Origin: Eledone cirrhosa
Taxonomy: Eukaryota
NCBI GenBank assembly: GCA_964016885.1
Contig: OZ024741.1
Coordinates: 121,706,001-121,770,000 of the forward strand
DNA length: 64,000 bases
Reading direction: 5' to 3'
A program made the translations under genes and the position numbers. Below are positions 45,433 through 46,521 of this stretch, piece by piece; within the stretch, counting starts at the first letter, position 1, and each line of letters opens with the position of its first letter. A model generated the notes under the pieces. The model saw nothing but the letters and a program-made list of their open reading frames with translations, searched no databases and was not told the DNA's origin.

Positions 45433-45733
45433 TATATATAAAAACAAATAACGAAACGAAATTAAATTTCGTTTCGTTTGTAACTCACTTTTGTATGACT
45501 GACGCTTAAACAATTAAGTTAAAAATGTACATCTACATATGCATACTGAAATACTAGTATGCATATGAATACACACACGTATACATATGTAGGTGTAACA
45601 AGTCTTTCACTGGTTGCTTTACTGTGAGCAACCCAGCTATTCTCTATGTAAACACACAGACAAACCGGTTTTTAGAGTCATACTGGTTTTCGGGGGAACA
45701 CCTTCCCTCTATTCTCCAGAAAGCCAGACAAGG

Positions 45734-45778
45734 AATATTGAACTAGTTTCGTTGTTGTTACAACTCATCAGCAATATT
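45734..45778 (-). ncRNA. Type I hammerhead (inverted retrozyme copy)
   Basis: Reverse complement of 46228-46272. Confidence 0.9.
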
Positions 45779-46227
45779 TACCTATCTACCGGCCTTTCTG
45801 GAGAATCGTAAAAGCACATATCGTTATATGCTTTTTCTATGAAAATTAGTAGTGGGCAGACCAATTTGCATAGAGTGTGAGTACATGTTTACATACAGAA
45901 TAGCTGGATACTCACAGTAAAGTGACCAGTGAAAGACTTGGTACATCTACATATGTATACGTGTGTGTATTCATATGCATACTAGTATTTCAGTATGCAT
46001 ATGTAGATGTACATTTTTAACTTAATTGTTTAAGCGTCAGTCATACAAAAGTGAGTTACAAACGAAACGAAATTTAATTTCGTTTCGTTATTTGTTTTTA
46101 TCGTCTCCGTTGAACCGGTACGTACTCACACTCTATGCAAATTGGTCTGCCCACTACTAATTTTCATAGAAAAAGCATATAACGATATGTGCTTTTACGA
46201 TTCTCCAGAAAGGCCGGTAGATAGGTA

Positions 46228-46272
46228 AATATTGCTGATGAGTTGTAACAACAACGAAACTAGTTCAATATT
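46228..46272 (+). ncRNA. Type I hammerhead ribozyme with canonical core
   Basis: AAUAUUG-CUGAUGA-GUUG UAACAA CAAC-GAAAC-UA-GUU^-CAAUAUU; stem I extends to 46201-46294. Confidence 0.92.
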
Positions 46273-46489
46273 CCTTGTCTGGCTTTCTGGAGAATAGAGG
46301 AAAGGTGTTTCCTCAAAAACCAGATGACTCTAAAAACCGGTTTGTCTGTGTGTTTAGATACAGAATAGCTGGATACTCACAGTAAAGTGACCAGTGAAAG
46401 ACTTGGTACATCTACATATGTATACGTGTGTGTATTCATATGCATACTAGTATTTCAGTATGCATATGTAGATGTACATTTTTAACTTA

Positions 46490-46521
<32 letters not shown>

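What the first reader, a model, noticed from the sequence alone, without database searches (positions are those of the whole stretch)
45438..46490. ORF-less 465-nt hammerhead tandem unit with a circularly permuted inverted copy: candidate retrozyme / circular-RNA replicon
Seen: between two (TA)n tracts lie 1.3 direct copies of a 465-bp unit, preceded by an inverted 447-bp copy. The inverted copy starts mid-unit (equivalent to 46122), reads through the unit junction and stops ~20 nt short of its own start, further than the direct array itself extends. Each unit has a canonical type I hammerhead with a ~30-bp extended stem I and a palindromic stem III (AACUAGUU). The rest of the unit is packed with hairpins (aacgaaacgaaatt/aatttcgtttcgtt, aaaagcatat/atgtgctttt, tacatctacatatg/catatgtagatgta). 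Established: tandem hammerhead repeats self-cleave to monomers that can circularise (non-LTR retrozymes), and 5'-inverted ends are a Penelope-like element signature. Inference: a non-autonomous ribozyme RNA copied from a multimeric or circular template by a PLE reverse transcriptase, possibly an undescribed family in this lineage.
Basis: partly seen in the sequence, partly recalled or inferred. Interest (0 to 1): 0.9.

Follow-up and report, generated by a model that had tools for sequence, protein, structure and literature searches.

The report
Hammerhead retrozyme with Penelope-type insertions
A 466-base non-coding repeat carrying a predicted self-cutting hammerhead RNA has thousands of young copies in this animal genome, inserted in the two-ended pattern that Penelope-like retrotransposons leave, and the copies likely record one RNA molecule, probably a circle and sometimes edited, being copied round several times at each landing.

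Summary
The window holds one insertion of a young non-coding family: 465-469-nt units, a type I hammerhead, 4,898 exact core copies genome-wide, plus about 28,800 in a sister family. It fits the known animal non-LTR retrozymes. Insertions sit in (TA)n and start at two fixed sites 70-75 nt apart. Two-armed insertions use one site per arm (28 of 29 outward pairs), which is the Penelope-like 'tail'. The two arms usually share one variant (0.44% apart against 3.78% to other loci). Arms cross the cut site seamlessly (433 of 436). Variants fixed in all units lean A>G on the RNA strand (12 against 2 T>C; filter-dependent), which hints at ADAR editing written into DNA. Best reading: a Penelope-like RT primes on both target strands and copies one RNA, likely a circle. 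Not shown: cleavage, expression, the circle, the partner element. The window copy has one hammerhead per strand, so it could not release a monomer, and its inverted arm is a mosaic of two subfamilies. This scan noted Penelope-type tandem units without ribozymes in other genomes, but not this family.

The parts
44883..45335 (+). 3' end of a Penelope-like element (last codons of the GIY-YIG ORF, 3' UTR with a deletion, T-rich end); a neighbour in the same (TA)n, not part of the retrozyme
   Evidence: 86-95% identity to loci L117/L123; no similarity to the unit
45335..45440 (.). left (TA)n target tract
45438..45884 (-). inverted arm, 447 nt, unit 237-465 then 1-216; its 3' end at 45438 is RT start site B (…TTGTTTTTAT)
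   Evidence: 2,058 site-B ends joined to (TA)n genome-wide
45593..45705 (-). block of the inverted arm (unit 416-61, 11 differences) that matches another subfamily (L067/L195); template switch or later gene conversion; window coordinates approximate
45718..45789 (-). type I hammerhead, inverted arm; predicted cut between 45741 and 45740
   Evidence: position from the alignment
45885..45885 (.). head-to-head junction of the two 5'-truncated arms, one extra A
45886..46491 (+). direct arm, 606 nt: one full unit (45886-46350) plus 141 nt; its 3' end at 46491 is RT start site A (…TTAACTTAAT)
   Evidence: site-A ends genome-wide
46026..46101 (+). the 'tail' between RT start sites A (unit 141-148) and B (unit 216), holding the 13-bp hairpin at 46061-46089
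46200..46296 (+). type I hammerhead with extended stem I; core 46235-46241 and 46256-46259, stem II 46242-46255, palindromic stem III 46259-46264, predicted cut after 46265 (GUU)
46490..46584 (.). right (TA)n target tract

Best explanation
This is one insertion of a young, high-copy animal non-LTR retrozyme: an ORF-less 466-nt hammerhead unit that is likely moved by a Penelope-like retrotransposon's enzymes and likely copied from a single RNA circle. Shown in the genome: (TA)n targets; two fixed 3' ends (A, B); head-to-head arms with one A end and one B end; both arms and all units usually sharing one variant; seamless read-through of the cut site. Inferred: tandem copies are transcribed; the hammerhead (possibly as a dimer through palindromic stem III) cuts out monomers; a host ligase closes them; a PLE GIY-YIG endonuclease nicks both strands of (TA)n; two RT subunits start internally at A and B on the same RNA and run round it for random lengths; the two cDNA ends join by microhomology. 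Some long arrays grew further in DNA afterwards. A-to-I edits on the structured RNA are probably fixed into all units of the daughter insertion (about 0.6). I put retrozyme moved by a PLE at about 0.9 and a monomer circle as the usual template at about 0.65.
For: 4,898 exact hammerhead cores, control 0. 190 of 201 3' ends are followed by (TA)n. 28 of 29 outward end pairs are A+B, and the one B+B is two separate insertions. In 52 end-blind insertions: 29 A+B, 5 more with a tiny second arm of the other type, 1 A+A, 0 B+B, 3 unclassed, 14 one-armed. The sister family shows the same in about 6 readable two-armed loci of 16 fetched. Two internal RT start sites, AT-rich nicks on both strands and a predicted dimer are reported for a purified PLE protein (PMC11167929); a tail at one end only is the PLE mark (PMC8557442). 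Arms differ by a median 0.44% against 3.78% to other loci, and the partner arm is in the closest 10% in 67 of 73. 28 rare variants in 20 of 73 loci are fixed in every copy of both arms, against 1 fixed in one arm only. 18 of 18 units are identical at J12. In 24 of 73 neither arm is contained in the other and arm lengths are uncorrelated. 433 of 436 read-throughs of the cut site have no indel. 0 of 11 core positions are among 124 positions with inherited variants, while 8 single-copy changes hit the core. 12 of 23 hammerhead pairs change on both sides, mostly between the two families. A>G is 12 of 25 all-copy variants against T>C 2, whereas single-copy changes are 48:48; L201 has 8 A>G among 9 differences from its parent subfamily.
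Against: No RNA, cleavage or circle was observed. 5' truncations do not pile up at the cut site (3 of 100), which fits a circle but equally an uncut transcript. The young subfamily has GUU and a 2-bp stem III, so monomer cleavage may be weak. Hammerhead cleavage was dispensable for PAc insertion in vitro, and 8 of 9 Xenopus retrozyme dimers did not cleave. Long arrays hold block duplications (period 3 in J25, period 6 in L183), so length alone is no proof of rolling-circle copying. 11 variants are shared by only some copies across both arms. The window's own arms are discordant. The A>G excess depends on the filter (p 0.33, 0.14, 0.024; 0.17; 0.006) and could partly reflect tolerance of G-U pairs. 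No PLE with a matching pLTR was found.
Confidence: 0.68

Rival explanations
1. Same PLE machinery, but the template is an uncut linear multimer transcribed from a homogeneous source array; the hammerhead plays no part in mobility and no circle is needed.
For: Homogeneous arrays of 20-30 units exist and could be donors. PAc uses unprocessed RNA in vitro. No truncation peak at the cut site. 11 partly shared cross-arm variants. [quoted passage not shown]
Against: Variants private to a locus are fixed in all units of both arms even in short insertions (17 cases in loci of 8 or fewer segments). Editing of a multimer would not mark every unit alike. The core is spared among inherited changes (0 of 11; about 3 expected by my rough estimate) and stems covary.
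Confidence: 0.2
2. Short insertions are made by one priming event, the inverted arm arises by fold-back self-priming of the cDNA, and arrays grow later by unequal crossing-over as satellites.
For: Self-priming was proposed for PLE head-to-head structures (PMC3846280). Local amplification was proposed for retrozyme arrays (2026 preprint). A few junctions overlap by 13-86 nt (9 of the listed junctions). Block duplications are seen in long arrays.
Against: In 24 of 73 insertions (21 of 49 with both arms under 1 kb), including the window's, neither arm can be a one-pass copy of the other. The second arm ends at the other fixed site. 62 of 73 already have an arm longer than one unit.
Confidence: 0.07
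3. The unit is the pLTR of an autonomous Penelope-like element and these are its truncated ends.
For: PLE ends and tail. Xenopus retrozymes are homologous to pLTRs in 24 of 57 families. Only 46 of 10,596 GIY-YIG candidates and 20 of 86,353 Neptune-like candidates were examined.
Against: Arms run unit after unit for up to about 31 units with no ORF sequence. tblastn found no PLE ORF inside 127 insertions except one hit between two separate insertions. The pLTRs of the PLE families seen are unrelated to the unit.
Confidence: 0.05

Closest known systems
Animal non-LTR retrozymes (Cervera & de la Pena 2020, PMC7229834; Li, Clavereau & Pollet 2026, bioRxiv 10.64898/2026.07.22.740005)
   Same: ORF-less tandem units of a few hundred bp, one type I hammerhead each, GC under 50%, thousands of copies, highly paired predicted circle, PLEs in the same genome.
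   Different: The sections read do not describe fixed A/B ends, head-to-head arms, (TA)n targeting, one-template arrays or an A>G signature; the 2020 review says the repeats show no motif that identifies the mobilising element (PMC7761336). RNA and cleavage were shown there, not here. Supplements were not seen.
Insertion architecture of endonuclease-bearing Penelope-like elements: pLTR, inverted 5'-truncated copy, tail at one end (PMC8557442, PMC3846280); internal initiation at two sites by PAc (PMC11167929)
   Same: Two fixed 3' ends, one per arm; head-to-head arms; AT-rich or (TA)n targets; microhomology junctions.
   Different: No ORF; the tail is 70-75 nt rather than 30-40; the arms are many-unit concatemers; the hammerhead is canonical with a long stem I.
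Newt/axolotl satellite-2-type hammerheads that cut as dimers (PMC7229834)
   Same: Weak, palindromic stem III; the sister family has a U-U mismatch at the base of stem II like HHR_Amex2.
   Different: GUU triplet in the young subfamily, GUC in older ones, GUA in the sister family; dimer dependence untested.

Membership tests
animal non-LTR retrozyme | tandem units of about 150-450+ bp with one type I hammerhead each | tested here: met
   465-468-nt units in arrays; Rfam HH9 E 1.9e-7, below gathering score; covariation
animal non-LTR retrozyme | no ORF; no LTR-type layout; GC below 50% | tested here: met
   (unit GC 166 of 465)
animal non-LTR retrozyme | dispersed, mobile, multicopy | tested here: met
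animal non-LTR retrozyme | at least two consecutive hammerhead-bearing units (able to release a monomer) | tested here: met
   87 of 217 arms cross two or more cut sites; the window copy itself does not
animal non-LTR retrozyme | self-cleavage of the transcript | not testable with these tools
   core intact and spared among inherited changes is indirect only
animal non-LTR retrozyme | accumulation as circular RNA | tested here: inconclusive
   no run on record as RNA; one 496-nt contig in a run of unknown kind
Penelope-like insertion mechanism | two fixed 3' ends with the tail on one arm only; inverted 5'-truncated arm; AT-rich target | tested here: met
autonomous Penelope-like element | RT plus GIY-YIG ORF between pLTRs | tested here: not met
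   none inside 127 insertions; long PLE ORFs exist elsewhere in the genome
pLTR derivative of a resident PLE | sequence homology to a PLE pLTR in the same genome | tested here: inconclusive
   none among 66 PLE loci and the other hammerhead contexts held; a small sample

The most novel reading that the evidence does not exclude
Each insertion is a DNA fossil of one RNA circle. A dimeric Penelope-like RT starts at two fixed sites on the same circle, one per target strand, and rolls round it, and ADAR edits made on that circle are written into every unit and inherited by later generations of the element. RNA editing would then be a main driver of this family's sequence evolution, and the family would be the first direct genomic proof of the rolling-circle retrozyme cycle.
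Probability: 0.4. Interest if true: 0.8.

Novelty: new member of a known kind. Interest (0 to 1): 0.6.

Why it matters
How animal retrozymes move, and by which enzyme, is stated as open in the papers read. This family ties a retrozyme to the Penelope-like mechanism by its ends and gives an RNA of only 466 nt with two exact start sites for in vitro work. Thousands of young copies allow circle against multimer, twin priming against fold-back, and editing-into-DNA to be tested by sequence alone. With the sister family, over 33,000 hammerheads of this type lie in the genome.

Tried and rejected
Expression: no RNA holder listed among 6 runs. Laying 4 of them gave one 496-nt contig (466+30, depth 4.5) in run X4. 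The run's kind is unknown, a collapsed DNA array assembles the same way and a neighbouring repeat is present at low depth, so it is not counted as evidence of a circle. Partner search: PF01541 scan (150 scored, 46 fetched), one Neptune-like protein (129 scored, 20 fetched) and other hammerhead contexts gave no matching pLTR; the hits were retrozyme insertions beside PLEs. Rfam microRNA matches are AT-rich hairpin noise far below gathering scores. TSDs cannot be read inside (TA)n. Assembly chimera is rejected. L198 was dropped as a duplicate of L197; L189 and L227 were left out of arm comparisons because they hold two insertions. 19 loci were picked as A+B pairs and are tallied apart, but 17 of them are among the 73. 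Literature: 9 searches found no paper on a cephalopod retrozyme, on retrozyme A/B ends or on edited retrozyme copies; subscription papers and Repbase are not searched. The supplement of PMC7229834 could not be read and preprint supplements are closed; either may list such a family.

Full report
Observation. The sequence matches the description. An inverted arm (45438-45884, unit 237-465 then 1-216) and a direct arm (45886-46491, one unit plus 141 nt) lie head to head between (TA)n tracts. Rfam finds a type I hammerhead once on each strand (38.6 bits, E 1.9e-7, below the family's gathering score of 52). The unit folds far better than shuffles and has no ORF above 65 aa. With one ribozyme per strand, this copy could not cut out a monomer.

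Family. The 3.0-Gb own genome gave 1,117 candidates; of the 40 best scored, most were about 99% identical. The 41-nt hammerhead core occurs exactly 4,898 times, control 0. Subfamilies run down to about 86-90% identity. A homologous sister family with units of about 420-540 nt adds about 28,785 cores. Across 16 hand-picked hammerheads of both families, 94.8% of cells pair and 12 of 23 pairs change on both sides. Most of this is one contrast between the two families, and the structure was drawn from these sequences. Among 124 unit positions with variants fixed in two or more copies, none is among 11 core positions, while 8 of 536 single-copy changes hit the core. The host looks octopod from its repeats; that is recalled and untested.

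Ends. 3' ends fall at unit 141-148 (A) or 214-217 (B). 2,058 B ends and at least 598 A ends are joined directly to (TA)n (the reverse count is inflated by overlapping matches). On the first 131 Mb of C1, 28 of 29 outward-facing end pairs are A+B, and the exception is two separate insertions. In 52 insertions chosen without regard to ends there were 29 A+B, 5 with a tiny second arm of the other type, 3 unclassed, 1 A+A, 0 B+B and 14 one-armed. In 56 B-anchored loci there were 27 A+B, 5 with a tiny A arm, 4 unclassed, 12 one-armed, 8 running off the stretch and no B+B. 190 of 201 ends run into (TA)n. The sister family behaves alike where both ends could be read. This is the Penelope-like pattern: an inverted truncated copy and a tail at one end (PMC8557442 and PMC3846280, passages), explained in vitro by two internal RT start sites and nicks on both strands of AT-rich DNA (PMC11167929, parts 1-2 of 4).

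Template. In 73 two-armed insertions the arms differ by a median 0.44%, against 3.78% to other loci, and the partner arm is among the closest 10% in 67 (a first pass on 45 gave 0.54% and 3.5%). Full units within an insertion differ by a median of 0 changes, against 15 between loci (86 units, 20 loci). 28 rare variants in 20 loci are present in every copy of both arms, 1 in one whole arm only, 25 in some copies of one arm, 11 in some copies of both arms and 259 in a single copy. In 24 of 73 A+B insertions neither arm is contained in the other, and arm lengths are uncorrelated (rho 0.18, p 0.13). Both arms were therefore templated separately from one RNA variant that could be read past its own start. 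5' truncations are spread evenly, with 3 of 100 near the cut site, and 433 of 436 read-throughs have no indel there. A ligated monomer circle explains this most simply, and is the cycle proposed in PMC7229834 (parts 2-4 of 6). An uncut multimer from a uniform source array is not excluded. The longest arrays carry block duplications, so they grew further in DNA.

Editing hint. Of 25 distinct variants fixed in all copies of both arms, 12 are A>G on the RNA strand and 2 are T>C (p 0.006). C>T is not enriched (3 of 25 against 42 of 375), and single-copy changes are symmetric at 48:48. Ten of the 12 adenosines are paired in the predicted fold, against 90 of 146 overall. L201 differs from its parent subfamily by 8 A>G and 1 C>T in all copies, nested on five A>G shared with L231. 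Lineage-level changes give 16 against 6. Other filters were weaker (p 0.33, 0.14, 0.024; 0.17), these tallies overlap, and tolerance of G-U pairs could contribute. Widespread editing of repeats in cephalopods is reported (PMC9068888, passages). I treat this as a lead at about 0.6.

The window copy. Both arms share 259G and match the youngest subfamily, except for a block of the inverted arm (unit 416-61, 11 differences) that matches subfamily L067/L195. It is one of 3 discordant cases among 73 and the only one with the differences in a single block. Template switching or later gene conversion could explain it. The left neighbour is the 3' end of a PLE in the same (TA)n.

Partner. The genome has long or intact PLE ORFs with RT and GIY-YIG domains and a young family with 713-aa frames (the label Neptune-like is recalled from motifs). 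Their ends are also T-rich and lie in (TA)n, but none of 66 loci fetched shares a pLTR with the unit, and no PLE ORF lies inside 127 insertions. The partner is unidentified.

Comparison and verdict. By every feature testable here it is an animal non-LTR retrozyme. A 2026 preprint (parts 1-3 of 5) already argues for PLE origin, in vertebrates, and suggests that arrays arise by local amplification. A 2020 review (passages) says no motif points to the mobiliser. The class is known. The added value is the end rule, the one-template signature and the A>G lead, none of which I found in 9 searches, with supplements unseen. Earlier scan notes, read after my reading was formed, show no look-alike of this sequence but similar PLE-type tandem units without ribozymes in other genomes. 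Interest 0.6.

Noticed in passing
G000 genome-wide; examples L105, L121, L122, L237-L252: Sister retrozyme family (about 28,785 hammerhead cores, GUA triplet, U-U at the base of stem II, units of about 420-540 nt with an internal variable (TA)n); same A+B end rule.
   Followed up: partly
L201 (G000:C1 near 61.85 Mb), L231, L208, J12: Clusters of A>G fixed in all units, nested across loci; ADAR-like.
   Followed up: partly
L177-L178, L183, L075-L076: Arms of up to about 31 units; periodic variant blocks (period 3, period 6) point to later duplication or to assembly effects.
   Followed up: partly
window 14379, 14454, 14708, 17640, 42418, 47880, 48137, 50563, 51159: At least six other hammerhead-like motifs, of types also seen beside (TA)n and at PLE ends in other loci; 50563 and 51159 face outward like a two-armed insertion.
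   Followed up: no
window 14903-15789 (-): Broken PLE ORF remnant, 32-41% identical to the 713-aa family.
   Followed up: no
window 19768-34236: 14.5-kb satellite of a 15-bp unit (about 990 copies) with extreme G/T strand skew.
   Followed up: no
L113, L111, L166, L170: Long open PLE frames (1,096, 938 and 713 aa); several PLE families have head-to-head insertions and two end sites about 40 or 90 nt apart.
   Followed up: partly
window 46645-46830 and 37024-37405: Very high-copy SINE-like repeat; depth far above the unit's in all four runs laid.
   Followed up: no
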